Assembly (NCBI GenBank): GCA_965226795.1
Contig: CBDDDZ010000005.1
Coordinates: forward strand, 2,336,001 to 2,400,000
From: Candidatus Latescibacterota bacterium
Lineage (GTDB): Bacteria > Latescibacterota > UBA2968 > GCA-2709665
Length of the DNA: 64,000 nucleotides
Reading direction: 5' to 3'
Numbering within the stretch: the first letter of the stretch is position 1; each line of letters starts with the position of its first letter. Shown piece by piece: positions 1,252-23,068 of this stretch. Made by a program: the position numbers and the translations under genes. The notes beneath the pieces were generated by a model, which had not been told where the DNA came from, did no database searches, and saw nothing but the letters and a program-made list of their open reading frames with translations.

Positions 1252-1335
1252 GGCTAACGTTTTCGCCGTGCCCGAACCGCGAAGCGGTTGCGCGAAGGGC
1301 CGTATGGCCCGTAGCCGGGCACGGACGTGTTATGT
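1252..1335 (-). repeat. attC-like site 2
   Basis: GGCTAAC...GTTATGT; stem CCGTGCCCG/CGGGCACGG; sub-hairpins AACCGC-GAA-GCGGTT and GGGCC-GTAT-GGCCC. Confidence 0.85.
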
Positions 1336-1454
1336 GTTGTGCCAGCCGGGGGGCGGGGGCGGCCTTGCCACGGATGGCAAGGCCGCTTTGTCGCTGAAAC
1401 AGAATTTCCGCTAAATGAATTATTCAGCGGAAATCTTGAAAGAAGAACGAGGGA

Positions 1455-1625
1455 TTATGTCTCCCGTTTCACCGATTCTTCTCTACTTTTCCGCACCAGC
1501 TTCTCAGGATGCTCTTTCTGGCGTCTTATGTAATACGCCACCAATTTCTCTGGGTCGTGATCACATTGCTCCGAAATCCTATGACGCACTTCACGAATCC
1601 TACGAATGGTCGGATCATCTTTCAT
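1455..1625 (-). CDS. 56-aa protein overlapping the PIN toxin stop; probable antitoxin (not in ORF track)
   Basis: Manual translation MKDDPTIRRIREVRHRISEQCDHDPEKLVAYYIRRQKEHPEKLVRKSREESVKRET*; start overlaps 3' end of PIN gene. Confidence 0.65.
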   Translation of the reverse strand: MKDDPTIRRIREVRHRISEQCDHDPEKLVAYYIRRQKEHPEKLVRKSREESVKRET

Positions 1626-2100
1626 CTTCAATATCTCCTAGGAGTTCCAGCGGAGTCACCAACGTGGGCACATATAAGCCAAGAATAGTGTTGACTCGCT
1701 TGATGTGGGCAAACTTATTCGCGTTAGCCAGATGATTGCAATTCCATGTGAGCAAAAATTCACACTTATGATAAGAGGCTGTCGCAAGATGGAGTGCATC
1801 GCCCAGGGGATCATTAGGCATCATCTGGTGTTGGATATATGCTTCTACAATCTCAGCGATTTCTCGTTCAATTGGCAGCAGTGGCAAAGGAGCAACCAGG
1901 GCCAATACTCGGTCCTTGTTAGGATACTCTCCTCCACTGAGTTCATCGATAACCGCTTCACTGGTGAAAATCTCATAACCCTCACGCCGTTCGTCCCACC
2001 ACTGGCGTGTCCAAGTCCGCTTTGCAGCCATCTCGGGTTCTGTACGTGTTTCGTAATAGAAACTGGGAATAGATATCTCGATGTAGACCTTAGGAATCAT
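1615..2100 (-). CDS. PIN-domain (VapC-like) toxin
   Basis: VYIE(T/I)SIPS start, SEAVIDEL, DALHLA, LLTWNCNHLAN PIN motifs. Confidence 0.85.
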   Translation of the reverse strand: MIPKVYIEISIPSFYYETRTEPEMAAKRTWTRQWWDERREGYEIFTSEAVIDELSGGEYPNKDRVLALVAPLPLLPIEREIAEIVEAYIQHQMMPNDPLGDALHLATASYHKCEFLLTWNCNHLANANKFAHIKRVNTILGLYVPTLVTPLELLGDIEDER

Positions 2101-2290
2101 TATATATCATATTGTTTTTAATATGGTAAAGACGGTTCAATTCTGCTGCGATTGGTCACCTATAGACCTGCTATAAATCTACATATCTTAATTAAGTTCT
2201 TCAAGCGAAATTTCCGCTACTGAAGAACGTAGTGAGATTCTCTTGGGCGGCCAGGACGGCCGCCTGCTTTTGGAGGAAGGCTGGCATGGC

Positions 2291-2378
2291 TTATAACGTT
2301 CCCGCGGGCTGCGAACCTGCGCCAGCAGGTTGCTGCGGAGGCCCGAAAGGGCCGGAGCCGCAGCCCGACGTGTTAGCT
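2291..2378 (-). repeat. attC-like site 3
   Basis: TTATAAC...GTTAGCT; stem CGGGCTGCG/CGCAGCCCG; very similar to site 12 (22980-23068). Confidence 0.88.
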
Positions 2379-2439
2379 GCAGTTGTCCCTAGCTAATGCG
2401 ATGCGTTAAGAATCTCGAAGTCGTCTTCAGTGTTTTTTA

Positions 2440-2979
2440 TTAAACGTTTTTGGTTGCCCGAATTCGAGCGAGTAAAACCGGAACCCAATGATCGCCGTAC
2501 CGAGTGCGAAGGATTGTTGACATCCAATCCTCTCCGGTAATCAGACCGCGGCACTCGGATGAATCACAATTGCAGTTCATCGCGAACTCAAAACTATCCG
2601 CCTGCGTGGCATAGTCTACTGAAATCTCTTCGTTTTTTAGTATGTCTCTCCGGGATTCCAGAGTGAAGGCATCAACGTGCCAAACAGTCGGATCACAGCT
2701 GTGATTCAAGAAATGGACTTGCTGTCTCGGTACAATGAACAGATCAAGACCTTCAGCAACGCTGATACTGTCAACGTAAGGCAGATCAGGGTTGCTTTCT
2801 CTTGCGGAGATCATCTTCAGCAGGTTATCTCGAGAGATAATCTCGCCGCCGAACTGCAGAATCCTCGTGCCGGCAGTGATTAAGGTCTCAGCGAAAAGAC
2901 CGGATCCCTCAATCTCGGATCTTCGGACTCCCACTTCGCTATGCAACCAACACTTCGATGGGGGTTGAGGTGTTTTCAC
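2440..2979 (-). CDS. SET-domain protein (putative lysine methyltransferase) with post-SET Cys cluster
   Basis: GSGLFA, FLNHSCDP, EEISVDY, CNCDSSEC. Confidence 0.9.
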   Translation of the reverse strand: MKTPQPPSKCWLHSEVGVRRSEIEGSGLFAETLITAGTRILQFGGEIISRDNLLKMISARESNPDLPYVDSISVAEGLDLFIVPRQQVHFLNHSCDPTVWHVDAFTLESRRDILKNEEISVDYATQADSFEFAMNCNCDSSECRGLITGEDWMSTILRTRYGDHWVPVLLARIRATKNV

Positions 2980-3008
2980 GTAGACATCGCGATCTCTGGG
3001 GCAATTGC

Positions 3009-3160
3009 AGATAACGTTCCCGGGCTATACGACGTTCCCCGGTCCGGCGAAGCCGGATTGGCGCGGCGCTTGCGTCTCTCAGCAAGCGACGTGACAAAGG
3101 GGAATGTGCCCGAAGGGCCGGAGGGAGCGAAGCGACCGGAGCGAATAGCCCGTGTTAGCA
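3009..3160 (-). repeat. attC-like site 4 (long, multi-branched)
   Basis: AGATAAC...GTTAGCA; stem CGGGCTAT/ATAGCCCG; sub-hairpins TCCGGC-GAA-GCCGGA and CGCTTGC/GCAAGCG. Confidence 0.85.
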
Positions 3161-3714
3161 GAAGTCGCATCGGGGTGGCGCCCCTCTCGGTCCTGGAGAT
3201 CGGGGCGTACATACAGCGTGCGACATAGGTTTGGTTCCTCTCATCTGATTGGGATGACCTGAGATCCGATTCGAAAAAATGGTTTAGCCCTAGGCAATAC
3301 CGAAGAGATCACGACATCTCTCCAAAACCTTCACGTCAGGACCAGCAAGGGCAGTGGCCCCTCCAAGCGGCACGCGAGCAAAGTGATCCCGAACTTAGCG
3401 GCATGCCCTCTGGGTAGGGGCGCAGCCTTCGGCATAGTCAAGTCATTAGCAAGTGAGCTTTTGGACAAGACGAAGGTGCATTCCGCCGGATATTCAGTTT
3501 TCTCCGTCGCCTTTTCGCCACTTCGATAGGTGTAAAAATCAAGCAACCGGTGTGACACAGGCCAATGTGTGGGTAGTGGTGTTGAGGTGGGTCCAGGAGC
3601 GCTTTATTTTGCGACGGCGCTCATGGCCCGACAATACAGATCTTCTACGTCGATGTCCGAGGCCGTCACTTCGGAGCACCACGCACGAAGTGTATGGGAG
3701 GCTCGATATGTTCG

Positions 3715-4201: not shown

Positions 4202-5578
4202 CTACCTGCTGAACGCGTCGGGCCTGCTGGAGTCCGAGGGCCAGTACCCGTCGCGGCTCGGGTGCCAGCGCTTGCCGCACAGGTCGGAGATCACGCTCCA
4301 TTCGGGGGCGCTCAGATCAGGGTCCGGCTGGAACAGGAAGCGCTGCAGGCCGGCCCGCTCGGAGGCGGTCAGGATGCCGTGCAGGTCGCGGGCGGTCATG
4401 GGCTCGCCCCCGTGCGGACGGCGCCCCGTCGACACCCAGGCGATCACCTTGTTCACATCCCCGATGGCCTCCAGCGCTCGGCGCGTCTCGTTGTACACCA
4501 GCTCCGAGTAGAACTCCTCGGGGAACCCCAGTTCCATGTCCGCCAGGGTCTGCACCCCGGGAAGCTCCAGCCCCAGGAAGGCCTTGACCACGGCGAAGCC
4601 GTCTGCCTCCAACAGGGTCGGGTTCCAGTCCAGGACCTGCTGCACCCAGCGGGCCATGGTGCCGTAGAGGCCGTCATTCCCGCGGTGCCAGAAGTAGTGC
4701 TTGGGGAAGACGTAGTCGAAGTACTCCGCCATCTCGCCAAATTCGTGCCCGGTCAGTGACGAGAAAGCGGCGGTGCGCGGAATGCCCCCCAGCTCCACCT
4801 TCCCTCCCACTCTCTGCATCTGCGCGTGCACGGCGCGCATGAACCCCCGCGCCGCTTCGCGGCGGGCGCGCAGCCAGTACAGGGCATCCTCGTTCAGGTC
4901 GAACAGGTTCAGTGCCCCCAGCATGCCGCCGGACGCGTGGTAGCGCACCAGATCCGGAGTCAGGTTGTGGAAACGCTCGTTCAGGTGCGCCATGCCGCGG
5001 GCGACGCGCTCCACATCGGCGCCGATGGCTTCCAGGCGGTGCCGCATGCGACCGTCCAGTTCCAGTAGGGCCTTACCCCGATGGAAGGCAAGTTCGTAGA
5101 AGGTCTCACCGGGCTGGTCCAGGATGACGCCGTGGGCCTGGGGATAGGCACTGGCCAGGTCGTGCACCCCGGCGGCCACCTCGATGGCCCCGAAAGGGTC
5201 CTCCTCCTCGGCTAGGCCGCTGGTGGTACCCTGGCCCCGCTGGTAGAGCAGCCGGAGCCCGTCTCTGGAGTCGAAGATCATGATGTGCCAGCCCCGGGAG
5301 GCGGCGTTGTCGAGGAGCGCGTGGAGCTGCTTCTCCCTCTCGGGGGTGCGGGCCGTTTCCGGGGGCGGCTTGATGCCGAACGCGGCGTACACCTTTGGGT
5401 CCGCCGCAAACGAGGGGGTGAGGGTGTCCCCCCACAACGGCATGCCGGCCTCGTTCCTGAGCCACATCCGTCCCACCACGATGCCGCCCACCCCTCCCGC
5501 CTCCCACGCGTCGAAGATGCGCGGGTAGTCGTCCAGCCAGTGCTCCAGGGGATTGTGCACGAAGATCCAGGGTACCAT
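4202..5578 (-). CDS. Hypothetical 458-aa protein, paralogue of 16927-18240
   Basis: Long high-GC ORF with RBS GAGGT; shares FPKHYFWHRG and AWVSTGRRPHGG blocks with the 437-aa ORF. Confidence 0.85.
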   Translation of the reverse strand: MVPWIFVHNPLEHWLDDYPRIFDAWEAGGVGGIVVGRMWLRNEAGMPLWGDTLTPSFAADPKVYAAFGIKPPPETARTPEREKQLHALLDNAASRGWHIMIFDSRDGLRLLYQRGQGTTSGLAEEEDPFGAIEVAAGVHDLASAYPQAHGVILDQPGETFYELAFHRGKALLELDGRMRHRLEAIGADVERVARGMAHLNERFHNLTPDLVRYHASGGMLGALNLFDLNEDALYWLRARREAARGFMRAVHAQMQRVGGKVELGGIPRTAAFSSLTGHEFGEMAEYFDYVFPKHYFWHRGNDGLYGTMARWVQQVLDWNPTLLEADGFAVVKAFLGLELPGVQTLADMELGFPEEFYSELVYNETRRALEAIGDVNKVIAWVSTGRRPHGGEPMTARDLHGILTASERAGLQRFLFQPDPDLSAPEWSVISDLCGKRWHPSRDGYWPSDSSRPDAFSR

Positions 5579-5598
5579 CGCGTCACCTCTCTCTGGGG

Positions 5599-5906: not shown

Positions 5907-6040
5907 TGCTAACTACGGTATTACCGAACAGTTACGGTAATGCGTACCTGATCCGAAGATCTGCGAACGTTCGGGAACATTCCACGCTGAAGCTTGTAGC
6001 CCGAACATGTTCAGGAATGCTTCCTATGGTGGCATCGTCT
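5907..6040 (-). other. attI-like site, copy B
   Basis: Near-identical to 23814-23947; similarity stops at the TAAC (GTT core on minus strand). Confidence 0.75.
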
Positions 6041-6295
6041 CTAATCAAAAACTGCCTCCCTTTCTTCCATCAATGCATCCAGCGGGCTCTGGATTTTCGC
6101 GAGATCCCGATTCGTCACCCGAGTATAGATCTGTGTGGTCTTTGGGCTTACGTGCCCGAGCAACACCTGGATATATCGCAGGTCCGTCCCGCGTTCAAGC
6201 AGGTGTGTCGCAAAGGAATGCCGTAGCGTCGGTATCCGCTGGACAATTTTCGCTTTCTCGCAAGCCCAGTCAAACGCGGTCTGTACCGACCTCTC
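6041..6295 (-). pseudogene. Truncated second copy of the tyrosine recombinase C-terminus
   Basis: Nucleotide match to 23948-~24208; translates ...[38 protein letters not shown]...SPLDAL; a 6-nt deletion removes the His of HxxR. Confidence 0.9.
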
Positions 6296-6608
6296 CCTGT
6301 GCTATCGGATTTCGCCAACCCATTGCGCCCAAAAAACGGGAGCAACTTAGTCGTGAAACTGAAATCCCAAGTCTCAAATATCGCCACTCACTCGAACCGC
6401 ATCCATTCAACAATATCATCGAGAGCCTTGTCTTGATAGCTCACCGCGTCCTCCCGTCCTACAAAGCCATGAACAAAATCCGTGGAGGCAGTCGCCTTCC
6501 TTGGATCATCATTCCACACGTGATACTCCCTCAGCCCAATTACCGTCGTGGGCATACACATTATACGGGCTGACAATGCACTTGAAATCCAGCAGTATGC
6601 ATAGTTCG

Positions 6609-7136: not shown

Positions 7137-7219
7137 AGTCAACGATCTCACGGGCCGTGAACCTGCGAAGCAGGTTGGGGGACGGGCGTAAACCCGAAGG
7201 CGGGGGCACGGTGTTAGAC
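7137..7219 (-). repeat. attC-like site 5 (somewhat degenerate)
   Basis: AGTCAAC...GTTAGAC; AACCTGC-GAA-GCAGGTT sub-hairpin as in sites 3, 10 and 12. Confidence 0.7.
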
Positions 7220-7255
7220 CTCGGGCAGTTTCGGAGAATGTCCCTACACCTTGGC

Positions 7256-8526: not shown

Positions 8527-8683
8527 AGCTAACGTTTGGCGTCTGCGAAGGGGACTGGCCCGGGGAAGCCGGATTGGCGCATTGCGACGAGGTCGTGAAG
8601 GGTGATGAAGTAGACGCGATGGCCGGCTTCGAGTGCTTTGAGTGCCAGTCCGATAGCCAGGTCGGGTGCAGCGTGTGTTAGGC
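8527..8683 (-). repeat. attC-like site 7
   Basis: AGCTAAC...GTTAGGC; stop codon TAA of the HAD fragment lies inside the R''-like GCCTAAC. Confidence 0.7.
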
Positions 8684-9200
8684 AGCCCCTGTCCAATCCT
8701 CCCGAATGAACTTCGCAACGCTATCCTCGTTGTTGCTGCCAATCACTTCGGTGGCATGCCTCTTCACTTCATCTGTTGCATTCGAGACGACAATCGCGCG
8801 GTCAGCCATTTGAAGCATACGAATATCGTTGTCACCATCTCCGAACACCACTAGCTCTGATCCTTCCAGACCCCACTCTCGCATCACAATGCGAATAGCC
8901 TGGTCTTTTGTGGCCTTCTCATCGTGCACTGTCAACCAGTACCATCCAGGAGAATACCAATTCTCGAAGCAATGTGTCTCCACCGCACCATTGCACCTTG
9001 TTTTGATTGCGCCTTCCAATTCCTGCAATGGCCCACCTCGCCCGATTATGGTCAGACGGATCACTTTGTCATGGAACGACTGCCTCACGTCGTCCACAAG
9101 GCGCAAACGTCCATCACCTTGATGATCATCCGTTGCGGATCACCTCGAACTGGATCGGATTGACTTCGGTCTTCGCATGCAACTACGGAATCTCCTTTAA
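8678..9200 (-). pseudogene. Cof-like HAD-IIB hydrolase, C-terminal fragment
   Basis: ATKDQAI, VVFGDGDNDIRM, SNA motifs; N-terminal DxD absent, cut off by the Kelch gene. Confidence 0.75.
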
Positions 9201-9211
9201 GAAATGCCCTG

Positions 9212-10339
9212 TCAGGCCGGTGTTCCGCGCCAGAAATCGTTGTACGCCGCCAGCGGCCCGTCCCCGTGCGGCCCGGTAGCCAGGTCCAGCCCCCCGAAGA
9301 GATATACGGACTCGCCCCCCACTGCCATAACGGGGATTCGCCTGACGCCGGGACGTTCGGCGCCATCAGAGGAATCCTCCGCACCGTTGTGTGGATATAG
9401 ACAGTCCCACCGGCCGGCACGAAGATCGTACTGCCACAGATCGTTCAGCTGGGGGTGCTCCCCTTCCCCTCCTGCAAATCCTCCGAACAGATACAGGTAA
9501 TCTCCGATCACAGCGTGTCCCAGCCCGTACCGAGGGGAAGGCCGTGCAACATCATCCGCCCGGTTCTCCTGAATGCAGGTCCAGGCGCCTCCGTCGGGAT
9601 CGTATTCCCACAGATCGTTGTAGAACTCCGGCGCCCGACCCTGACTGTCCCGACCGCCCCACAGGTAGAGCCTGCCGTTCCAGCCGACCAGCACGGGACA
9701 GTATCGTTTCGGCGGCCAACCGTTGCGCCCATTCGACGCAGGCCCCAGGTGCTCCCATTTCCCGGCCGGCGCCTTGTAGGTCCACAGCTGTGCGTGCGTC
9801 ATCGCGCCATGGCCCCCCATCAGATACAGGTAATCACCCAGAACGGCCGCCCCCATCCCGCCCGAACCGGCGGGACGATGCCCATCCGCCGTTATTCCTG
9901 ATGCGCGCCCGTCGTCGGGCTCTAACAGCTCCCACGAGGCTGTCTTCGGATCGTAGGCCCAGAGATCGTTCAGCTTGATCGCCCCCTTGCCGGGGCCCCG
10001 CACCGAGGACCCGCCGAAAAGATAAAGCCTGCCGTTCACGGGCAGCCAGGTCGTGAGCTTCCGGGTACACGGTCTGGTATCGGACGGCCTGAACCCGATG
10101 CGCCCATCGTGGTCTTCCAACCGCGTCCACCGGCCTCGACCCGGGTCGTAGCGCCACAGGTCGTTCAATGAGCCCTGGACGGAAAGATCTCCAGGCCCTT
10201 TCGGCCGGCCGTACATCACTTTTATCCCCCCGAACAGGTAGACGCATCCATTGTAGCTCAACATCCCGCCGAAGGCCGCCCGCCTACAGGGTACATCCTC
10301 GGCTTGCTCCTGGTCCGGATGCAGCAGTTCCCACTTCAT
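9212..10339 (-). CDS. Kelch-repeat beta-propeller protein
   Basis: Repeated LYLFGG...LNDLWxYD units; start MKWELL with RBS GGAGG. Confidence 0.9.
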   Translation of the reverse strand: MKWELLHPDQEQAEDVPCRRAAFGGMLSYNGCVYLFGGIKVMYGRPKGPGDLSVQGSLNDLWRYDPGRGRWTRLEDHDGRIGFRPSDTRPCTRKLTTWLPVNGRLYLFGGSSVRGPGKGAIKLNDLWAYDPKTASWELLEPDDGRASGITADGHRPAGSGGMGAAVLGDYLYLMGGHGAMTHAQLWTYKAPAGKWEHLGPASNGRNGWPPKRYCPVLVGWNGRLYLWGGRDSQGRAPEFYNDLWEYDPDGGAWTCIQENRADDVARPSPRYGLGHAVIGDYLYLFGGFAGGEGEHPQLNDLWQYDLRAGRWDCLYPHNGAEDSSDGAERPGVRRIPVMAVGGESVYLFGGLDLATGPHGDGPLAAYNDFWRGTPA

Positions 10340-14573: not shown

Positions 14574-14670
14574 TGTTAACGTTATGCCGGTTTGCGAGGG
14601 CCGAACTGACAAGGCGTTGCCGATGGCCAAGGCGGCGACCGCAGCAGCAGCGCAAACTGTGCTGTTATCT
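14574..14670 (-). repeat. attC-like site 8
   Basis: TGTTAAC...GTTATCT; stem GTTTGCG/CGCAAAC. Confidence 0.72.
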
Positions 14671-14722
14671 GACGTGCGATACCCAAATTGTATCGCCCGC
14701 AACGTAACGCGGTTCGACACGT

Positions 14723-15205
14723 CTACCTGGTGACCACCCAATAGGTGTTGGTTTCCTTCGCCGATCCGACGTATGGCTCACAATCTTGGCTTCCGAAGAA
14801 CTGCCAACGATCGAATCCTCCCAGACGCAACAGCAATTGGAACTCTTCCGGGTAGATCCATCGTGCACGCATCGGCACTTTGCTGTCTCACAGTCATGCC
14901 TAAAGGTCCAGGTGTAGCTTTCCGTTTGTGACGAATGGTCGCAGATCTTCGAGTAGCTTACCTCGATCTCTTTCTCGGTCTCGGGATTGATAAACTCGCC
15001 AAATCTCTCTTCAGCAGGTGGGGATTCTTGATGGAGGAGCAAATCGTCTACGTAGGACGGAACGTAGAAATTCAATAGCAAACGTCCCCCGGGAACGAGA
15101 CAGTCGTAGACACTCTGAAGGGGTCTTTCGTTTTATGTCCTTTCTTGAGGAAATCCAGTGCATGTCCAAAAGACATGGATATTATTGTCTTTGCTTGTGC
15201 CCCCT
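14723..15205 (-). pseudogene. Class I SAM-dependent methyltransferase, C-terminal fragment
   Basis: PGDVCYxLLNFYVP and, after a frameshift, RWIYPEEFQLLLRLGGF. Confidence 0.55.
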
Positions 15206-15284
15206 TTGATTTTCAAGTTCTACCCCTCAAGCTTTTCGTCCGTAACGGGTGGAATTGAACGCAAGAAACTTAATTGAAACAGTA

Positions 15285-15935
15285 CTAAGTTTGCATAAGC
15301 TCATGGATCAGCGGTGGGACCTGACGGATATCGGTCAGTTGCCGCAGGGCACCGGTGAAGTCCAGGCCGCGCGTCAGGCCCTGCGGTATGACGATGCAGC
15401 GCAGCCCGGCCGCCAGTGCGGCGCGCAGCCCCCGGTCCGAGTCTTCGATTACGACGCATTCGGCGGCGCTAAGGCCGTTTTGCCGCATAGCCGTGAGGTA
15501 GGGCTCGGGGTCGGGCTTGGAATGCCGGTAGTCTTCTTGCACGAGCGTGAAATCGATGCAGTCCAGCAGGCCGGTGGCGGCGTGGATGATCTCAAAGTGC
15601 TCCCGCCGCGAACTGGTGACGATGCCCATGCGCACCGTGCCGTGGAGTTGGCGCAGCACTTGGCGGGCGCCGTCGATGACGGGTACACCGGCGCGCAAGA
15701 GTTCGGTGTAGCGGGCGTTGCGCCAGATGCGGGCGGGCTCCAGCGCCTGTTCGTCTATGCGGTGTTCGGCGGCGAACCTGGTAAGGCCATCGCTGGCCTT
15801 GAGGAAGAGCTCGATAAAACGGGCTTCGCTCAGGCGGACGCCGAGGGGTTCCAGGGTTTCGCGGCAGGCCTGGAAGTACAGGCCTTCGGTGTCGACCAGG
15901 ACGCCGTCGTTGTCCCAAAGAATGGCTTTCAGCAT
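15285..15935 (-). CDS. HAD-IA family phosphatase
   Basis: WDNDGVLVDTE, SKPDPEPY, IEDSDRG. Confidence 0.92.
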   Translation of the reverse strand: MLKAILWDNDGVLVDTEGLYFQACRETLEPLGVRLSEARFIELFLKASDGLTRFAAEHRIDEQALEPARIWRNARYTELLRAGVPVIDGARQVLRQLHGTVRMGIVTSSRREHFEIIHAATGLLDCIDFTLVQEDYRHSKPDPEPYLTAMRQNGLSAAECVVIEDSDRGLRAALAAGLRCIVIPQGLTRGLDFTGALRQLTDIRQVPPLIHELMQT

Positions 15936-15962
15936 GGCGCTTTATTTCCTTTTCGCCGCTTC

Positions 15963-15980
15963 GCATAACGGCCTGTTAAC
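15963..15980 (-). repeat. Truncated attC-like half-site at the start of the HAD cassette
   Basis: CGCCGCTTCGCATAACGG resembles the left ends of sites 1 and 12 (GCGCCGCTTTCG..TAAC); no matching hairpin follows. Confidence 0.5.
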
Positions 15981-16050
15981 CGCTGGCAGCCCCATCACGG
16001 CGAAGCCTATCACGGGCAGAGATAAAGCGCGCACCATCAGGCTTCTGATT

Positions 16051-16812
16051 CTACATGACCGGCCTGAATCTGGTTTGAAGAATCCTTTGGGCTGACAACT
16101 CACCAAAAGGCGCACCACAACACCTGACATCCTCCACAACCTTGTGGTAATCGTAACTCAATCGGTGATTTTCCACATGCCATTCCTGCCCATCCCACCA
16201 CACTCTGGCATATCCAGCTCGATGATCCCCGTCAAACGGAAACCCAACTGAATCAATGATGCTATACCGCTGACCGCACGGAACGCCACAGGCCGCATAG
16301 TGCAGGTGTCCCGCCACAATCAGATTGGCCTCCGCATCCCCCAGCAGTGTCCTGGCCTCCTCTTCTGGCGTAACGGTCAGAAGCCTGAACGGATCCTGAT
16401 CAGGTTGAAGAACCAAAAAACCGGCCACATCAGTAGGCGTTGCGTGCACAATGAGAAGATCATCCTCCGGAGACTGCCCTCCCGGTGGCGTTATCCTGTA
16501 CTCAAAGGGCAGACCCTTCAGATAGCTCAAGCCATCTGTTCCCAGCTTCTCTCTCACCCAGTCCAGTCTTTCCCCGGAATGCTGTTCATCAAAGACCAAC
16601 AGGTCTGCGTTCCCGTAAATCGTGGGAGCGCCCAGATTTCGTATCGCGTCAAGACTCTCGACCGGGCGGGGTCCGTTCAGCACCAGGTCGCCGGCGACCA
16701 CCAGACGATCATAGGGTTGGCTTTGCAGATCCTCAAGAACAGCGTTGAGTGCAGCGACGTTGCCGTGAATATCTGCAATTACCGCAACTGAGTATGACGG
16801 GGAATCATTCAT
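16051..16812 (-). CDS. Metallophosphoesterase (YfcE/calcineurin-like)
   Basis: ADIHGN, AGDLV, GNAD, VHAT, GHLH. Confidence 0.9.
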   Translation of the reverse strand: MNDSPSYSVAVIADIHGNVAALNAVLEDLQSQPYDRLVVAGDLVLNGPRPVESLDAIRNLGAPTIYGNADLLVFDEQHSGERLDWVREKLGTDGLSYLKGLPFEYRITPPGGQSPEDDLLIVHATPTDVAGFLVLQPDQDPFRLLTVTPEEEARTLLGDAEANLIVAGHLHYAACGVPCGQRYSIIDSVGFPFDGDHRAGYARVWWDGQEWHVENHRLSYDYHKVVEDVRCCGAPFGELSAQRILQTRFRPVM

Positions 16813-16926
16813 TTCACATCTCCAAAATTTCGAGGTGGCGGGCAGTGGTTCTTGCGCGCCTTCAGTTTTTGCCGCTTATCGTTCGCGCCCGCGGGAAACC
16901 CTCCCGCAACGAGTCAGAGATCTTGC

Positions 16927-18240
16927 TCATATTCGGCCCCCTTCGGGTACCTCGCGCCCGCCGTCCCAGACGCCTGGCTTGTCGGTCCCCGTCGGCCAGT
17001 ACCCGTCGGCGTCTTCATCCCATTGGTTTCCGCACAGCGACGAGATGATGGTCCATTCCGCCGCCCCGAAATCCGGCTCGGGATGGTATAGGAAGCGCTT
17101 CAACCCCGCCTCCTGCGAAGCAGTCAGGATGCCGTAGAGATCGCGCGCCTGCATCGGGTCGCCGCCGTGGGGGCGGCGCCCCGTGGACACCCAGGCTATC
17201 ACCTTGTCGGGATCACCTATGGCCGCCAGGGCCCGCCGAGTCTCGTTGTAGACCACCTTGGAGAAGAATTCGTCGGGGAAACCCATCTCCATGTCCATAA
17301 GCGAGTTGATGCCAGGCAGCTCGATGCCCAACAGCGCCTTCACTACGGCGAAACACTCCGCCTCGCTCAGGGACGGATTCCACTTTCGCAATCGTCTTAC
17401 CCAGCGGGATATGGTTCCGTACATGCCGTCCATGCCGCGGTGCCAAAAATAGTGTTTCGGAAAGATATAGTCGAAATACTCCGCCATCTGACAGTAATTC
17501 TGTCCGGTGAGCGATGACCACGTCACGGCCCGCGGGATACCGCCCAACTCCACCTTGCGATCGACGGCGTCGACCTGTTGCCGCATGTACTGCCAGTCGA
17601 AGCGAGAGCGCTCCTGACGCTTGCGCAGCCAGTAGAGCACGTCCTCGTTGACGTCGAACAGGAGCATTGCCCCCAGCATCCCCCCGTCGGCGTGGTACCG
17701 CACCATTTCCGGTGTCAGATTGTGCAAACGCTCCCGAAAGTGGGTGATGCCGCGTTGTATTCGATCAATCTCGGCGCCGACCTGGGCGAAGCGGCCCTCC
17801 TCACCCGGACGGATCTCCAGGAGTTCGCCCCCGTGGTGGAAGGCAAGCTCGTAGTGGTTTTCGCCCGGACCGTCGACAATGACGCCGTGCACCTGCGGAA
17901 AGGCGTTCATTAGGTCCTGCACGTGGGCGGTCGGGCCGCCTCCGGCGAAAATCAGTAGTCGCCAGCCCCGCTCCGCGGCGTTGTCCAGCATTGCGTGCAG
18001 CTTCTTCTCTTTTGAGAGGTCGCGCGGACGCTGCTCCGGGACTTCCGCCCCCAGGGCCTCGTACACCTTCGGGTCGGGAGCCCACGCCGGAATGGTGGTG
18101 CCATCCTCCTGGAGGAATGCCATGCGGCCGACGGCCAGACCGCGCACGCCACCATCCGCCCAGGCGTCGAACCGCTCCTCGAACCCGTCGAGCCAGTGTT
18201 CGAACGGGCTGTCACTGCAGGTGAATACCCAGAGTTTCAT
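16927..18240 (-). CDS. Hypothetical 437-aa protein, paralogue of 4202-5578
   Basis: RBS GGAGG; starts 34 bp after attC-like site 9; conserved blocks shared with the paralogue. Confidence 0.85.
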   Translation of the reverse strand: MKLWVFTCSDSPFEHWLDGFEERFDAWADGGVRGLAVGRMAFLQEDGTTIPAWAPDPKVYEALGAEVPEQRPRDLSKEKKLHAMLDNAAERGWRLLIFAGGGPTAHVQDLMNAFPQVHGVIVDGPGENHYELAFHHGGELLEIRPGEEGRFAQVGAEIDRIQRGITHFRERLHNLTPEMVRYHADGGMLGAMLLFDVNEDVLYWLRKRQERSRFDWQYMRQQVDAVDRKVELGGIPRAVTWSSLTGQNYCQMAEYFDYIFPKHYFWHRGMDGMYGTISRWVRRLRKWNPSLSEAECFAVVKALLGIELPGINSLMDMEMGFPDEFFSKVVYNETRRALAAIGDPDKVIAWVSTGRRPHGGDPMQARDLYGILTASQEAGLKRFLYHPEPDFGAAEWTIISSLCGNQWDEDADGYWPTGTDKPGVWDGGREVPEGGRI

Positions 18241-18273
18241 TTTTCCCTCCTTTGGGGTAAAAGGGGCGATTTC

Positions 18274-18377
18274 CGTTAACGGCCTCGCGATACCCGACGT
18301 TGCCGGAGCGTAGCGGAGGTAATGTGCCCGGAGGGCCGAATGACCGAAGGGAGTGTAGCGGGCATCGCGTGTTAAGC
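18274..18377 (-). repeat. attC-like site 9
   Basis: CGTTAAC...GTTAAGC; stem CGCGATACCCG/CGGGCATCGCG. Confidence 0.85.
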
Positions 18378-18512
18378 GTCCGTGTTGTTTTTTGTCATCA
18401 GGAATGGAATAAAGGAGCGGACATCACTTTCTCTGTTTTTCCGGTTTTTCTGCTTTTCAACAAGAAGATTACTGTTGTACCGATTCCTCGCCAGATAGCA
18501 ACTTACGGAGGT

Positions 18513-18947
18513 CTATGTTGATATATTCGATACGCAGTCGAAACCAACGGATCGACACTGAATCTGAATTGTACCTTCCAACAGAATCTCCCTGTGCTCG
18601 TCCTTCCTCTCGTTCTGCCAGTATCGTCGCGCCCGCTCGAACATCGATTGAAGGGTTTCGAATTCTTCGAAGTAACTTATCAGGTTCATATCAGCAGCGA
18701 ACGCGCGCGAGCATTCAAGAATCTCGATATCATACAGTTCGCACGCTTCCCTATGGGAGTCGAATCGTCTGGCAGCACTCGCTTCTGGCCAGAGAAACAG
18801 GCAATCAAACCGACTTGGCCTATGGGGAAATTCCCGTAGACGAACAGTCTCCCACGCGAGTTCCATCATGACACGACCTGTCTCGGCGGCATTTGGAACC
18901 GTTACCGCGAGAGAGTCCGCTTGGACTTCGATCAGGATCTGACGCAT
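18513..18947 (-). CDS. Hypothetical protein, DUF2441-like, 5' end probably disrupted
   Basis: ELAWETVRLREFPHRPSRFDCLFL and ARRYW...EILLEG pattern. Confidence 0.5.
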   Translation of the reverse strand: MRQILIEVQADSLAVTVPNAAETGRVMMELAWETVRLREFPHRPSRFDCLFLWPEASAARRFDSHREACELYDIEILECSRAFAADMNLISYFEEFETLQSMFERARRYWQNERKDEHREILLEGTIQIQCRSVGFDCVSNIST

Positions 18948-19094
18948 TAAATGGGTCTGGAAGTCTCCAGGTCTTACAACGGCTCCAGAGCGAAGGCCAG
19001 ACTTCGCCGACCAAAGCAGGTGAGTTCCTGGACCAATATGTTGTAGAGCCCGTGCTCGCTGGCTCGGCGTCCATCCAGAACCCCGTCGAAATTC

Positions 19095-19345
19095 TCACTC
19101 ACAGAACTGAAATGCGTAGAGCTTCGCGTCGCGCATGATGAAGCGTATCCTGACCGGTTGGCCGGCGAGTTGGCGAAGGTCGCCAGCGGGCCACGAAACG
19201 GGCAGCCTGACGGAATTGCCGACGTGCCATATTGAATCTGCGCCACTATACCCCTCAAGCGGACTTCCGTCTTCGGCGAGTAGTTCAACGCGCACGCTGC
19301 CTCCGGCGGCTGTGTCGACATTGAGTTCGAGGCGCGATCCGTAAT
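19095..19345 (-). pseudogene. C-terminal fragment of a GH-like protein related to 10461-11905
   Basis: LELNVDTAAGGSVRVELL...IRFIMRDAKLYAFQF resembles LWINADATGGSLRVEI...KVYLDRAKLFALY. Confidence 0.6.
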
Positions 19346-20442
19346 TCGCCGGTGTTGGCGAATCGGCTGTGGTACTGGCACAGCACTCGGTCCGGTCGAT
19401 CCGCCCGTTTGCCGGCTAGTTCGGGCATCAGCGACACGCCGCCCAGGTCCTCCGGCGTATCGAGTTCGGCCATGTCCATAAACGTCGGATAAAGGTCTAC
19501 CAGGGACACCAGCGCATCGACCTCGTGCCCCGCGCGTACATCCGGGCCGGCGACGATCAGCGGCACGCGAGCGGACGCCTCGTACATCGCGTTTTTCAGA
19601 TGTTGGCGATGTTCCATATTCATCTCGCCGTGATCGCTGGCGAACAGTACATAGGTGCTGTCCATCAGCCCGAGCCGATCGACCGTGGCCATCACCTCAC
19701 CTACCATTTCGTCGACTTCCGTCACCATCGCGAAATACGTGCGCCGCACCGCGCGAATTTCGTCTTCGGTGAACGGATCGGCGCAACCCTTGGTCGCGCA
19801 CATGTAGTCCACCACGGGATGCAGATGGGCCTCATACGGTGGAATGGTCACTGCGTCGGGGTCAATTCTGTCGAGATAGTATTGCGAGGAGACGAAAGCG
19901 GGGTGCGGACAATCCAAACTGCAGTGCAGGATGAAGGGCCGGTCGCCCGCCTGGCGCGTCTCCAGGTAGGCGATGGTGTCCTCGACCTTAGCCCAGTCGC
20001 GCTGGTGTACGCGACGCTCATCCGTTGCGACGTGCTTCAGGCCCGGAAGCGGTCCGGTGCTGCGCGATAGCCGGATGTTGGCCGCGCGGGTCCAGGACGA
20101 TATTCGATTGTGCAGTGAATGGCGGCCTGACAGGTAATCCGTCTTGCCGTAGGCCTGGTGGATATAGCCCGCGTCCTCCAGGTCGGAGACATAGGTTCGC
20201 TCGTCCGGCTCGAGCCCCTTATAATTGTTCCATCCTTCGATGACGTGGGTGTGTTTGCCGCTCCAGCGACTGGAGCGCGACGGGCAACACTGGGGAGAGC
20301 TGCAATAGGTGTTGCGGAACAGAGCGCCGCGCTCCGCCAGATGGTCCAGGTGCGGCGTCTTCACCGCCGGATGGCCGACGCACCCCATCGCGCGCCCGTC
20401 CATGCTGTCGCATTCGATGAACAGGATGTTCCGCTTGCTCAT
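19285..20442 (-). pseudogene. Sulfatase (choline-sulfatase/ARSK-like), C-terminally truncated and fused
   Basis: NILFIECD, CCPSRS (CxPxR), SDHGE, RVPLIV; ends abruptly in an unrelated fragment. Confidence 0.8.
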
Positions 20443-21034
20443 GGCGTCGTCGGTGCGTCCTCGCTCGGATCCCAGATGGTCGCCGCGATGTGCTGCTGGG
20501 GATTCTCGGCGCTATTGAAGTAGTAGATCGTCACGAGCTTACCGTCCGGTCGTACGACCATGCGCGGATAACCCATGTCTCCGTACTGCGCCCCGTCACG
20601 GATCGCGATCTCTTCACCCCACTGGGTCCCGTCAGGGGACGTGAATCGGGCGCGTATCCCGCTCTGTTTGCCTGCCCGGTAGCCGTAGCCGCACACGAGG
20701 CGTCCGTCGGCGAGGCGGACCAAAGCCGGCGGATTGCCGTTGGAGGGGAGGTCGGGCGGGTGGGTGGCGGCGACCTTGCCCAAGAAGCGCCAGGAGACGC
20801 CGCCATATTATAGCTGGCCGCTTCTTCCCGCTGCCAGCTCTCGCCCCCGTCGCGGCTGCGCGAAAGGGCTGGGAAGGATGGTTGCTCACCACTGATTCGG
20901 TGGCCCTGTTCCTTGAACTCGTAGTCGCCGTTCGTATAGCCAACGACGATCTCGTCCGCCCAGCTCCATACCCCGTCGTTGGCCGGCCAGCCCAGGAATC
21001 GGCCTTCCTCTCCGGCTACGATAATATGCTTCAT
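20439..21034 (-). pseudogene. Sialidase/BNR-repeat protein with internal deletion and frameshift
   Basis: SRDGGESW, GNPPALVRLADGR, DMGYP motifs split over two frames near 20805. Confidence 0.7.
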
Positions 21035-21085
21035 GAGACGACCTTCATGATGGCGTACAATGTTCGGATCTTCTTTCCTCATTTC

Positions 21086-21176
21086 ATCTAACGTTTTCAC
21101 GGTTTACGAACCTGCGTAGCAGGTTGCCAAAGGCCAAGCCGCCGTAGGCGGCGAAGCGTAAACCGCTGTGTTAGAT
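21086..21176 (-). repeat. attC-like site 10
   Basis: TTCATCTAAC...GTTAGATGAA perfectly complementary; stem CGGTTTACG/CGTAAACCG; two GTA-loop hairpins. Confidence 0.9.
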
Positions 21177-21273
21177 GAAGTGGGATCTAAGCCAATGCCA
21201 AACACGCATAGATTACCGCCAGGGCTCAGCCGAGCCGTCCTCGGCGTCAGCTGCAGCCCTTGATTCGCCGGTG

Positions 21274-21741
21274 TTACTCAGGCCGCAAGTTCACTCTGTA
21301 CCGACACGTCGGCCCGAATTCTCCTGGCTCCCGTTCGGTTTCGATGGTGTCGACATACTCTGCGCCGATCAACTCACATGTTCTCCTGGATGCGAGATTA
21401 TCGGATCGGGAAGTGATTAACACCGAGTTGATCCCATGGCGCAGGGCAAGGGGAAACAGCAGGCGACAGCTGCGGGCAGCGTATCTGTTCCCGCGATATT
21501 CGTCGTCCACGTCGTGGCTCAGATTTCCTCCATACTGCTCGAGCCTTTCCGTGCACCGCGTTCTGAGGCGGATACTGCCGATCTTCACGTCGCTGCCAAT
21601 AAGCCGCATCTCGAAACGGTACTCCGGCACCCGTCCCGTGTCAGGATCAGATGGAAGCGTCTCGGTGAGGACGAGCTCAAGGTCTCCGTCGACCAAGTGT
21701 CCTGGATCGTGGAATTCACACTCGGAATTCTTTCGGGTCAT
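21274..21741 (-). CDS. GNAT family acetyltransferase
   Basis: IGSIRLR, GGNLSH, EYRGNRYA, DNLASRRTCE. Confidence 0.85.
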   Translation of the reverse strand: MTRKNSECEFHDPGHLVDGDLELVLTETLPSDPDTGRVPEYRFEMRLIGSDVKIGSIRLRTRCTERLEQYGGNLSHDVDDEYRGNRYAARSCRLLFPLALRHGINSVLITSRSDNLASRRTCELIGAEYVDTIETEREPGEFGPTCRYRVNLRPE

Positions 21742-21845
21742 CCGGTATTCTCTGCGGCCAACTTGTGATTGAACGGCGAATATGCAGTATATCTCCAGAA
21801 TATCGGGAGATACACTGCAAGACCCGACTTTACTTTTCCCATTTC

Positions 21846-21989
21846 ATCTAACGGTCAAGCACCCACGAACCTGCCCAGCTGGCACGGCGCTTGCCCCTCA
21901 CGATTCTCATCAAGCAAGCGCCCGTGACAGCGCCAGGCAGGTTCCGCGAAGGGGCGCAAGCCCCGAAGCCGGGGGTGCCGTTGTTAGCC
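21846..21989 (-). repeat. attC-like site 11
   Basis: ATCTAAC...GTTAGCC; GAACCTGCC/GGCAGGTTC, GGCGCTTGC/GCAAGCGCC, GGGGC-GCAA-GCCCC. Confidence 0.85.
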
Positions 21990-22079
21990 GATGCGGCGCG
22001 CCCCGGGTCCAGGCGCAGCCCTCAAAATGGGTCAGTCTAGCGCACACCATACACGGCCCCGCTTGGTTTTTCCTGACTC

Positions 22080-22883
22080 TCAATTGAGAAAGCTGATAAT
22101 CTCCACAGCTGATACGGAGACTACTCCGTGGTCATTGGTGACGTCACAAAATAGCATCTCCTGCTCGTTCAAAGAGGCCCTTTGGATAATTCGCCTGGCG
22201 GTGTCACAAACGACGGAACCGCCAAGAACACGGCCTTCAGGTATTGGGGTGACCTGGGAAACATAGTTGGACTGGATGACCGGCACATTGAACAATCCTG
22301 TAATCGCTTTCGCCCCCTCTCCGCACCCGTCTCGGGTCATCTCGCCATCCTGGTTCCTTTTGCTCGTCGCGACACTTGGCCACAGAATCACGTCGCTGTC
22401 CTCTAATCCTCGGCCTACCACGTGATCCAGAAAACTCGATTCGGCGCAGAAGACAGAGCCAAAAAGAATACCGTGGATGTCTACAGGAGACCGCTCCTCC
22501 GACTCTACAAAACCCCATAGTTTCTTCCAAGCCTCGATCAAGAATGTCCTGGAGCCAGCAAGTACCGGTCCTTCCCCCGGCTGCAGTAGCAACAGCGCAT
22601 TGAGGAATCCTCTCTTCGAGAGAAAGGGCGAGCCAACCAGTGTGTAAACTTCAATTTCTTGGGTAACCATGCTCAGCTCTTCCAAGCTCGTCTCGATTTG
22701 GCCGTACCAATCAGGCTCTTTGAAGAATTCGTGTAAGTGTTGATCATACCCGGTCAGCATCATCTCTGGGAAAACTATCAGCTCAGCCTCATGGGATGCC
22801 GCCCTTTGCATCCACGCTTCAACAGTCGCGGTATTTTCTTCAACTGTTGCCGACATTGCGGGTTGCATTGAACAGACTCTCAT
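22080..22883 (-). CDS. Carbon-nitrogen hydrolase (nitrilase superfamily)
   Basis: LIVFPEMMLTGY, FCAE, GGSVV; start MRVCSMQ. Confidence 0.85.
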   Translation of the reverse strand: MRVCSMQPAMSATVEENTATVEAWMQRAASHEAELIVFPEMMLTGYDQHLHEFFKEPDWYGQIETSLEELSMVTQEIEVYTLVGSPFLSKRGFLNALLLLQPGEGPVLAGSRTFLIEAWKKLWGFVESEERSPVDIHGILFGSVFCAESSFLDHVVGRGLEDSDVILWPSVATSKRNQDGEMTRDGCGEGAKAITGLFNVPVIQSNYVSQVTPIPEGRVLGGSVVCDTARRIIQRASLNEQEMLFCDVTNDHGVVSVSAVEIISFLN

Positions 22884-22979
22884 TTGATTTCTGGAAAAGT
22901 AGGGCTGAGGGGTGTCATGGTCTTGCTTTTGTGCTCCGTAACCTGGGTTGGGAGGGGTTCCGTATTCTGCGCCGCTTTC

Positions 22980-23068
22980 GCCTAACGTTCTCGCGGGCTG
23001 CGAACCTGGCGAAGCCAGGTTGCTGCGGAGGCGCGTATGCGCCGAAGCCGCAGCCCGTCGTGTTACAC
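22980..23068 (-). repeat. attC-like site 12 (closes the first cassette)
   Basis: GCCTAAC...GTTACAC; stem CGGGCTGCG/CGCAGCCCG; CCTGGC-GAA-GCCAGG. Confidence 0.9.

What the first reader, a model, noticed from the sequence alone, without database searches (positions are those of the whole stretch)
1252..23068. attC sites are branched and carry GNA/GNNA mini-hairpin loops on one strand
Seen: inside the main stem most sites have two or more sub-hairpins, with loops that read on the + (bottom) strand as c-GAA-g, c-GTA-g, c-GCAA-g or c-GAAA-g. Examples: AACCGC-GAA-GCGGTT, AACCTGC-GTA-GCAGGTT, GCCGCC-GTA-GGCGGC, CCTGGC-GAA-GCCAGG, TCCGGC-GAA-GCCGGA. Stems vary with compensation while the loops persist. 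Known: d(cGNAg) loops are exceptionally stable in ssDNA, and canonical attC recombines as the folded bottom strand. Inference: strand choice here may rely on loop stability and a Y-junction rather than only extrahelical bases.
Basis: partly seen in the sequence, partly recalled or inferred. Interest (0 to 1): 0.72.

Follow-up and report, generated by a model that had tools for sequence, protein, structure and literature searches.

The report
Mini-hairpin caps on branched attC sites
The recombination sites between swappable gene cassettes in this soil-type bacterium fold into small branched DNA structures whose arms end, on one strand only, in loops known to make exceptionally stable DNA hairpins, which extends a rule already known from antibiotic-resistance integrons.

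Summary
I find 10 attC-type sites in 1252-23068, not 12, plus one at 40-142. The family continues upstream, giving 31 sites in this genome.

Cassette ORFs lie on the - strand, so + is the bottom (folding) strand.
- 22 of 31 sites fold with two or more terminal hairpins.
- Perfect-stem hairpins closed C-G with GNA or GNNA loops: 24 on + and 0 on - in the 31 sites.
- Pooled with 24 sites from relatives: 39 vs 0 in 55 sites.
- In 89 further sites from five other genomes: 59 vs 0.
- The rest of the genome shows no bias (502 vs 479).

Branched attC tips and a conserved bottom-strand GAA tip are published. The sites still carry an asymmetric 5x1 spacer and a one-base bulge. A modelled loop bonus stabilises the + strand but does not raise the probability of the recombinogenic fold.

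The less expected result is the neighbouring recombinase. It is IntI/Xer-like but lacks the IntI-specific I2 insertion, and it is frameshifted in this genome.

The parts
40..142 (+). attC-type site (bottom strand on +), three sub-hairpins, cap GCCC-GCA-GGGC at 90-100
   Evidence: R1 33.6 bits, E 7.7e-08; fold; cap
1252..1337 (+). attC-type site; sub-hairpins AACCGC-GAA-GCGGTT (1275-1289) and GGGCC-GTAT-GGCCC
2291..2380 (+). attC-type site; caps AACCTGC-GCCA-GCAGGTT (2314-2331) and GGCCC-GAAA-GGGCC (2340-2353)
3007..3162 (+). long attC-type site with a multi-arm tip; caps TCCGGC-GAA-GCCGGA (3043-3057) and GCCC-GAA-GGGC (3108-3118)
   Evidence: R1 22.8 bits, E 0.00045
7138..7221 (+). attC-type site, weaker L box; cap AACCTGC-GAA-GCAGGTT (7160-7176)
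   Evidence: R1 26.9 bits
8527..8686 (+). probable long attC-type site (TAAC...GTTA ends, long tip), no GNA cap
   Evidence: found by inspection only; not reported by R1
14574..14672 (+). attC-type site, poorly folding tip, no GNA cap
   Evidence: R1 33.5 bits
18274..18379 (+). attC-type site; cap GCCC-GGA-GGGC (18326-18336); no bulge in the L box
   Evidence: R1 32.2 bits
21086..21178 (+). attC-type site, four-way junction; caps AACCTGC-GTA-GCAGGTT (21109-21125) and GCCGCC-GTA-GGCGGC (21138-21152)
21845..21990 (+). long attC-type site; cap GGGGC-GCAA-GCCCC (21951-21964)
   Evidence: partial R1 match 21861-21976, E 0.0051
22980..23070 (+). attC-type site; cap AACCTGGC-GAA-GCCAGGTT (23003-23021) and GGCGC-GTAT-GCGCC
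   Evidence: R1 97 bits
23817..23848 (+). end of the array: TAAC box (23817-23820), then the inverted repeat ATTACCG-N8-CGGTAAT (23827-23848); attI-like junction
   Evidence: read directly; repeated at 5910 onward (D1)
23948..24760 (-). IntI/Xer-like tyrosine recombinase, C-terminal 270 aa, lacking the IntI-specific insertion
   Evidence: TIGR02249 206 bits in two stretches, below the cut-off of 265; PDB 2a3v aligned 19-170 and 240-317 only; alignment A4
24595..25134 (-). N-terminal ~107 aa of the same recombinase in another frame (gene frameshifted here)
   Evidence: 84% identical to residues 1-107 of the intact 376-aa relative P0001; two 1-nt insertions versus three relatives
5910..6307 (-). 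second attI-like junction plus a remnant of the recombinase 3' end (1 TAG inside)
   Evidence: 300 nt 93% identical to 23817-24116; TIGR02249 positions 233-315 at window 6071-6307

Best explanation
These are attC-type recombination sites of a very large chromosomal cassette array. The closest named relatives are MAGs labelled Candidatus Latescibacterota.

Anatomy. The + strand is the bottom, folding strand. Each site has:
- a TAAC/GTTA R box;
- a 5-nt x 1-nt unpaired spacer;
- an 11-bp L stem, usually with one bulged base on the 3' arm;
- in place of a simple tip, a three- or four-way junction of short G+C-rich hairpins.

On the bottom strand only, those hairpins end in d(C-GNA-G), d(C-GNNA-G) or d(C-GAAT-G) loops. 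These are the sequence classes that form extraordinarily stable DNA mini-hairpins.

Reading. This is the multi-arm version of the conserved bottom-strand 5'-GAA-3' tip of mobile-integron attC sites.

Likely effect (inferred, not shown). The caps make the bottom strand fold faster, hold more tightly and resist SSB better than the top strand. They would compact a long tip so that the L and R boxes can meet. This adds to the strand asymmetry set by the spacer and the bulge; it does not replace it.
For: Site identity.
- R1 matches are all on +: 28 of 28 at E <= 0.01.
- 85.6% of cells are paired, against 30-39% when partners are slid.
- 10 of 11 L-box pairs change on both sides.
- TAAC and GTTA are conserved.

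Bottom-strand assignment.
- Family-matched ORFs are on the - strand.
- In 9 of 9 stretches, long ORFs lie mainly opposite the model strand.
- The bulge is on the 3' arm.

Caps.
- 24 vs 0 in 31 own sites, 39 vs 0 in 55 pooled sites, 59 vs 0 in 89 further sites.
- GNAB loops: 13 vs 0 and 35 vs 0.
- G1 and A3 are fixed while the middle base is A, C, T or G (GAA 11, GCA 9, GTA 6, GGA 3). This fits a sheared G-A requirement better than simple purine richness.
- The rest of the genome is unbiased.

Published stability (PMC13037366, passages).
- Of GCNNNGC, only GNA forms the mini-hairpin (Tm 70-76 C).
- GNNA variants melt at 71-76.5 C and GAAB at 67-70 C.
- GCTTTTGC melts at 33 C.
- An SSB-free hairpin is described at the phage G4 origin.

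Published attC biology (passages).
- Conserved bottom-strand GAA tip and a more stable bottom strand: PMC5027507.
- An apical G+C-rich stub survives SSB and is recognised by IntI: PMC5737091.

Folding here. The bottom strand is predicted more stable in 26 of 31 sites (mean -1.74 kcal/mol) and in 78 of 89 sites (mean -2.62). The parameter set scores GCGAAGC and GCTTCGC identically, so these figures exclude the cap effect.
Against: - No experiment here shows folding, recombination or strand choice.
- 24 of 55 and 38 of 89 sites have no perfect-stem cap.
- A modelled cap bonus leaves the probability of a paired L box unchanged: median 0.170 to 0.176, and bottom exceeds top in 18 of 28 sites at every bonus.
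- For VCR, replacing the whole branched tip by GAA or TTC changed recombination only 1.6- to 2.4-fold and did not alter strand choice (PMC2727003, passages).
- Branched tips are described as lowering the chance of a recombinogenic fold (PMC5371416, passages).
- The sites are paralogous, so part of the loop conservation is inherited.
- The only neighbouring recombinase gene is frameshifted in this genome.
Confidence: 0.6

Rival explanations
1. The capped arms are direct recognition elements. The neighbouring I2-less recombinase (perhaps its extra ~90-aa N-terminal domain) or a host protein reads the GNA loops or the junction, and this sets the strand.
For: - The recombinase lacks the insertion that docks extrahelical bases in IntI (PMC7790495, passages).
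- The bulged base is not conserved (T 9, A 7, G 5, C 3 of 24).
- Bouvier 2009 cites earlier work in which GAA to TTC in attCaadA1 severely reduced IntI1 binding in vitro (PMC2727003, passage; I did not read the primary paper).
- Hairpin 1 has a conserved AACC...GGTT base (97% paired).
Against: - Loop number, position and arm length vary between sites, and many sites have no cap.
- In IntI complexes the tip is not bound by the integrase (PMC5027507, passage).
- No binding data exist for this enzyme.
Confidence: 0.15
2. The one-strand loop pattern is inherited from a founder site and from the general purine skew of attC bottom strands, with no function of its own.
For: - All sites belong to one sequence family (alignments A3 and A6).
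- The attC + strand is G- and A-rich (G 1051 / C 872, A 586 / T 515).
- A purine skew of bottom strands is published (PMC5027507, passages).
Against: - There are 20 distinct stems and 31 distinct stem+loop combinations among 39 caps.
- The middle loop base is a pyrimidine in 15 of 29 triloop caps.
- None of 98 caps lies on the other strand, across 10 or more genomes of several genera.
- The local background GC skew of the + strand runs the opposite way.
Confidence: 0.12
3. Selection acts on the transcript. The hairpins sit at cassette mRNA 3' ends, and the loop bias reflects RNA stability, termination or avoidance of GNRA loops in the sense RNA.
For: The sites lie directly downstream of the cassette ORFs on the transcribed strand. 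This is inference only.
Against: - The sense RNA would carry UNC or UNNC loops, which are not a known stable class (from general knowledge).
- I saw no T-run after the sites that I read.
- The TAAC/GTTA boxes and the array layout are features of recombination sites.
Confidence: 0.06

Closest known systems
Integron attC sites: VCR-type sites of sedentary chromosomal integrons, and mobile-integron sites with a GAA tip (attCaadA7, attCereA2)
   Same: - Inverse core boxes ...AAC / GTT....
- An imperfect palindrome with a covarying stem, an unpaired spacer and a bulge on the 3' arm of the bottom strand.
- One site per promoterless cassette, with all cassettes in one orientation.
- Branched tips in long chromosomal sites, and a bottom-strand 5'-GAA-3' tip in most mobile sites (PMC2727003, PMC5027507, PMC5371416, passages).
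   Different: - The spacer is 5 x 1 nt, not about 5-6 nt on each arm.
- There is one bulged base of any identity in place of the conserved G and T.
- There are two to four capped arms per site.
- Caps include GCA, GTA, GGA, GNNA and GAAT.
- The neighbouring recombinase has no I2 insertion and is co-oriented with the cassettes.
d(GCGAAGC) / d(GCGAAAGC) mini-hairpins (Hirao and co-workers)
   Same: C-G closing pair, G first and A last in the loop, any middle base; also the GAAB class (PMC13037366, passages).
   Different: Here the motif is embedded in longer stems inside a junction of a recombination site. Its stability in that context was not measured. One search listed no paper linking the motif to attC.
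CALINs (clusters of attC sites lacking an integron integrase)
   Same: - No gene here reaches the integron-integrase model cut-off (best 105.9 bits per stretch).
- Many relatives have arrays and no such recombinase nearby.
   Different: An IntI-like recombinase, or its remnant, sits at the end of arrays in the same arrangement in several genomes. IntegronFinder was not run.
Integron integrase IntI (VchIntIA, PDB 2a3v; TIGR02249) and Xer recombinases
   Same: - The best solved relative is VchIntIA (E 5.1e-41).
- The columns of the catalytic R, K, H, R, H and Y are invariant in alignment A4.
   Different: About 40 residues of the IntI-specific region are absent, and there is an extra ~90-aa N-terminal domain of no Pfam family. 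The scores to IntI, XerA, XerC and XerD models are similar.

Membership tests
integron attC site | Inverse core boxes: R' 5'-RYYYAAC on the bottom strand and R'' 5'-GTTRRRY, able to pair | tested here: met
   Of 28 aligned sites: T 25, A 26, A 23, C 27 on the 5' side and G 28, T 26, T 28, A 26 on the 3' side. The outer three pairs are only about half paired.
integron attC site | Imperfect palindrome (L'/L'') conserved in structure, not sequence | tested here: met
   L helix 89.3% paired; 10 of 11 pairs change on both sides; 0 of 500 shuffles reach the score; slid controls 30-39% paired.
integron attC site | Unpaired central spacer between the R and L boxes | tested here: met
   Present but asymmetric: 5 nt (G-T-T-Y-Y) on the 5' arm and 1 nt (T in 25 of 28) on the 3' arm. 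The published norm is 5-6 nt per arm (PMC5027507, passage).
integron attC site | Two or three extrahelical bases on the R''-L'' arm, with a conserved G in L'' and a T | tested here: not met
   A single bulge in 24 of 28 sites, with base T 9, A 7, G 5, C 3. No conserved G or T.
integron attC site | One site per promoterless cassette, array in one orientation | tested here: met
   All sites are on +. ORFs are mainly on -. Some intervals hold several ORFs and no detected site.
integron attC site | Recombined as a folded bottom strand by IntI | not testable with these tools
   Needs strand-specific delivery assays.
integron (complete) | Adjacent integron integrase with the IntI-specific additional domain (I2 helix) | tested here: not met
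   TIGR02249 profile positions 175-234 are unmatched. PDB 2a3v residues 171-239 have no counterpart. Gaps against a canonical IntI of a relative. The gene is also frameshifted here.
d(GNA)/d(GNNA) DNA mini-hairpin | C-G closing pair with G at the first and A at the last loop position | tested here: met
   39 such hairpins in 55 sites and 59 in 89 sites, all on one strand.
d(GNA)/d(GNNA) DNA mini-hairpin | Exceptional thermal stability of the folded strand | not testable with these tools
   The ViennaRNA DNA parameters give GCGAAGC and GCTTCGC the same energy. Needs melting curves.
CALIN | Two or more attC sites with no integron integrase nearby, as called by IntegronFinder | not tested
   IntegronFinder is not available here. 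By the TIGR02249 cut-off no IntI is present in the genome.

The most novel reading that the evidence does not exclude
A lineage of IntI/Xer-like tyrosine recombinases that never acquired, or has lost, the I2 helix runs an integron-like cassette system in Latescibacterota.

Without I2 to dock conserved extrahelical bases, strand choice would rest on the 5x1 spacer, one non-specific bulge, and a bottom-strand-only set of mini-hairpin-capped arms.

This would show that single-strand attC recombination does not require the I2 innovation.
Probability: 0.3. Interest if true: 0.85.

Novelty: new variant of a known kind. Interest (0 to 1): 0.55.

Why it matters
How integrons tell the two strands of a nearly symmetrical site apart decides whether captured genes are expressed. 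The role of the tip of the site is the least settled part of that question.

This family offers a natural test set. The middle base is free, which points to mini-hairpin chemistry more than to purine content.

The sites sit beside a recombinase without the helix that is thought to have made single-strand recombination possible. The locus could therefore show which features are truly necessary.

If it is only the known GAA rule in a branched site, it is a useful but modest extension.

Tried and rejected
- Rfam: no family matched the window at gathering scores.
- Generic inverted-repeat search: it missed the sites because the arms are interrupted.
- My first strict fold-based finder found only 3 sites. 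A stem-based finder found 6 of the 11 window sites. The covariance model did better.
- Hypothesis that caps raise the equilibrium probability of the recombinogenic fold: not supported by the model.
- Reading the recombinase as a mobile element inserted into an attC site: rejected as the main reading. No attC remainder lies beyond it in the window, and it sits at array ends in the same arrangement in other genomes. Multi-copy 314-aa versions in G020 and G017 keep this open.
- Looking for an array of this family, or any obvious attC array, next to the canonical IntI of relative G017: none found within 40 kb.
- Column-wise covariation of the inner sub-hairpins: abandoned because loop-length differences misalign the columns. 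Distinct stems were counted in its place.
- Earlier scan notes for this genome: none near the finding.


Full report
**1. What is at the coordinates**

The five quoted strings are all present once, on the + strand: 1275-1289, 21109-21125, 21138-21152, 23005-23019 and 3043-3057.

They lie inside repeated elements that begin ...YTAAC-GTTYY and end ...T-GTTA. These elements were visible as direct-repeat families D5-D7 and by reading the intergenic stretches.

I built a covariance model (R1) from four similar copies. The given structure was the R box, the L box and the base of the first inner hairpin.
- With filters off, R1 finds eight full-length matches in the window at E <= 1e-5, all on the + strand, plus a partial match at 21861-21976. 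The best - strand match has E 0.02.
- With default filters it also reports 3009-3162.
- With 8527-8686, which rests on inspection only, the stated range holds 10 sites, not 12. An eleventh lies at 40-142.

**2. They are attC-type sites, and + is the bottom strand**

On 28 model-aligned sites of this genome:
- 85.6% of cells are paired, against 30-39% when partners are slid;
- 0 of 500 shuffles reach the observed score;
- 10 of 11 L-box pairs change on both sides.

The anatomy:
- TAAC and GTTA are nearly invariant;
- the spacer is 5 nt (G-T-T-Y-Y) on the 5' arm and 1 nt (T in 25 of 28) on the 3' arm;
- two base pairs follow, then a single bulged base in 24 of 28 sites (T 9, A 7, G 5, C 3), then nine more pairs.

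Strand assignment:
- ORFs with family matches are all on the - strand. They are a HIT protein, a Kelch-type protein, an MBL-fold hydrolase, a phosphatase, a sulfatase and a nitrilase-type hydrolase.
- In 9 of 9 array stretches from five genomes, long ORFs lie mainly on the strand opposite the model strand.
- The bulge is on the 3' arm, as in canonical bottom strands.

**3. Extent**

The family is not confined to the window.
- The genome has further sites upstream, at contig positions 2,205,825-2,334,455, all on +. I compiled 31 sites.
- The closest named relatives of the neighbouring recombinase are MAGs labelled Candidatus Latescibacterota.
- R1 matches at E <= 1e-5 occur in 27 of 41 related genomes searched, including 13 of 14 of the same genus. 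Those genomes are a sample, and some are incomplete.

**4. Branching**

In the + strand MFE fold (DNA parameters), 22 of 31 sites have two or more terminal hairpins with stems of 3 bp or more. So do 69 of 89 non-redundant sites from five other genomes.

The usual layout is:
- the L stem;
- a first arm with a conserved AACC...GGTT base (97% paired);
- a purine-rich linker, often CGAAGG;
- a second arm, and sometimes a third;
- a second linker, often CGAAGC.

**5. Loop motifs and strand bias**

I counted perfect-stem hairpins (4 bp or more) with 3- or 4-nt loops. The class of interest is C-G closed with G first and A last. Its mirror class (T first, C last) is the same motif on the other strand.

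| Set | Caps on bottom strand | Caps on other strand |
|---|---|---|
| Window, inside 1,214 nt of attC | 12 | 0 |
| Window, other 62.8 kb | 12 | 15 |
| 31 sites of this genome | 24 (in 19 sites) | 0 |
| 24 sites flanking recombinase homologues in other genomes | 15 | 0 |
| 55 sites pooled | 39 | 0 |
| 89 further sites, 5 genomes (94 matches, 5 dropped) | 59 | 0 |
| Rest of genome, triloops | 502 | 479 |
| Rest of genome, tetraloops | 418 | 460 |

For the 24-site set, three hits that were 90% or more identical to own sites were dropped.

Further detail on the pooled 55 sites:
- 29 of 50 triloops are c-GNA-g, against 502 of 24,654 elsewhere in the genome (odds ratio 66).
- The triloops are GAA 11, GCA 9, GTA 6 and GGA 3.
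- The 39 caps use 20 distinct stems and 31 distinct stem+loop combinations.

It scores 13 vs 0 and 35 vs 0.

Limits:
- The sites are paralogous, so P values overstate independence.
- 24 of 55 and 38 of 89 sites have no perfect-stem cap.

**6. Thermodynamics**

The bottom strand is predicted more stable in 26 of 31 sites (mean -1.74 kcal/mol) and in 78 of 89 sites (mean -2.62). G.T pairs contribute: 41 against 27.

The parameter set gives GCGAAGC and GCTTCGC identical energies.

Published measurements (PMC13037366, passages):
- Only GNA forms the mini-hairpin among GCNNNGC (Tm 70-76 C).
- GNNA variants melt at 71-76.5 C.
- GAAB variants, including GAAT, melt at 67-70 C.
- GCTTTTGC melts at 33 C.

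I added a bonus of -2 or -3 kcal/mol per cap.
- The mean ensemble difference grows from -1.64 to -3.34 or -4.31 kcal/mol.
- The median probability that the L box is paired stays at 0.170-0.176.
- Bottom exceeds top in 18 of 28 sites at every bonus.

In this model the caps stabilise the arms whether or not the recombinogenic stem is closed. Any role in strand choice would therefore be kinetic, through total stability, or through resistance to SSB. It would not be a shift of the equilibrium fold.

**7. What is already known**

- Bouvier 2009 (PMC2727003, passages): the tip ranges from 3 nt to a complex branched structure in VCR. Replacing the 65-nt VCR tip by GAA or TTC changed recombination 1.6- to 2.4-fold without changing strand choice.
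- Nivina 2016 (PMC5027507, passages): tip inversion has site-dependent effects. Bottom strands are on average 2.12 kcal/mol more stable. In most mobile-integron sites the bottom-strand tip is a conserved 5'-GAA-3', which the authors explain by purine stacking.
- Grieb 2017 (PMC5737091, passages): a G+C-rich apical stub survives SSB and is recognised by IntI.
[quoted passage not shown] Large chromosomal arrays have bottom strands on the leading-strand template.

In the window the + strand has negative GC skew in most 2-kb bins. I infer that this matches the arrangement Loot describes.

A search for attC or integron together with GNA, mini-hairpin or sheared listed only a generic use of 'mini-hairpin' for attC (PMC11641012). 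I found no paper linking the d(GNA) motif to attC in that library. That is not proof that none exists.

A search for Latescibacter with integron listed 7 papers (listing only). None of their titles concerns integrons of this phylum.

**8. The neighbouring recombinase**

The array ends at a TAAC box at 23817-23820, followed by the inverted repeat ATTACCG-N8-CGGTAAT. Next comes a tyrosine recombinase gene on the - strand, co-oriented with the cassettes.

Evidence that it is IntI-like but lacks the I2 region:
- Its best solved relative is the Vibrio integron integrase (2a3v, E 5.1e-41). Only chain residues 19-170 and 240-317 align.
- The integron-integrase model matches positions 14-174 and 235-315, scoring below the cut-off. 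No other gene in the genome does better.
- Aligned with a canonical IntI from a related genome (464.5 bits), this protein and its relatives lack about 40 residues of the IntI-specific region. They carry an extra ~90-aa N-terminal domain with no Pfam match. The columns of the catalytic R, K, H, R, H and Y are invariant.
- The literature holds that this insertion (the I2 helix) docks the extrahelical bases and was the innovation that allowed single-strand recombination (PMC7790495, passages).

In this genome the gene is split by two 1-nt insertions relative to three relatives. This may be real decay or an assembly error.

A remnant of its 3' end, with the same junction, lies at 5910-6307.

Recombinases of this type sit beside R1-type sites in the same arrangement as follows:
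- in 7 of 14 loci searched, all seven of them Latescibacterota;
- at two places in G017;
- at five of six copies in G020, in G013 and in G038.

G016 shows a different orientation. Many genomes have arrays with no such gene. The 314-aa copies next to the canonical IntI of G017 have no R1 site nearby. The listing was truncated, so these counts are minima.

**9. Verdict**

One-stranded mini-hairpin caps on a branched tip are real and plausibly favour the bottom strand. However, the classical asymmetries are present, the general principle is published, and my model gives no support for a shift in the equilibrium fold.

The finding is a new variant of a known kind.

Two earlier notes of this scan describe similar pictures in other genomes. 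One reports G-N-A caps beside a Xer-type recombinase in an archaeon. The other reports a 5x1 loop beside a simple recombinase in a phage. They are unchecked leads and were not used as evidence.

Noticed in passing
window 24595-25134 and 23948-24760 (-), about 24,740-24,760: The recombinase gene is split into two frames by two single-base insertions relative to three relatives. An intact 376-aa version exists in a relative (P0001). This is either real decay or an assembly error.
   Followed up: partly
window 5910-6307: A second copy of the array-end junction (TAAC plus ATTACCG-N8-CGGTAAT) with a remnant of the recombinase 3' end containing a TAG. It is 93% identical over 300 nt to 23817-24116. 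Similar 86-aa remnants with one TAG occur in G008 and G013, so the rearrangement predates this genome.
   Followed up: partly
window 4202-5578 (-) and 16927-18240 (-): Two paralogous cassette genes (458 and 437 aa, 73-76% nucleotide identity over about 1 kb) with similar upstream leaders (GGGG...GGGGCGATTTC...TAAC). No NCBIfam match for either.
   Followed up: no
window 8686-14574, 14672-18274 and 18379-21086: Long stretches with several - strand ORFs and no detected site. They are multi-gene cassettes, or sites too degraded for the model.
   Followed up: no
G017:C1:2493564-2495712 (locus L032): In a same-family genome a canonical integron integrase (464.5 bits) is followed within about 400 bp by a 284-314-aa I2-less recombinase gene. 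The same pair recurs at 2158606-2160397. No R1-type site lies within 20 kb on either side.
   Followed up: partly
G020: At least six near-identical copies of a 314-aa I2-less recombinase are scattered over one chromosome. Five have an array of this attC family 2-3.5 kb away in the same relative arrangement. This looks like multiple integron-like platforms or a mobile platform.
   Followed up: partly
alignments A3 and A6, linkers between the arms: The junction linkers are themselves conserved and purine-rich (CGAAGG after arm 1, CGAAGC before the closing stem). The c-GAA-g string therefore also recurs outside hairpin loops.
   Followed up: no
window 1-64000: The GC skew of the + strand is negative in most 2-kb bins and the cumulative skew falls steadily. 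This places the attC bottom strands on the presumed leading-strand template, as reported for large chromosomal arrays.
   Followed up: no
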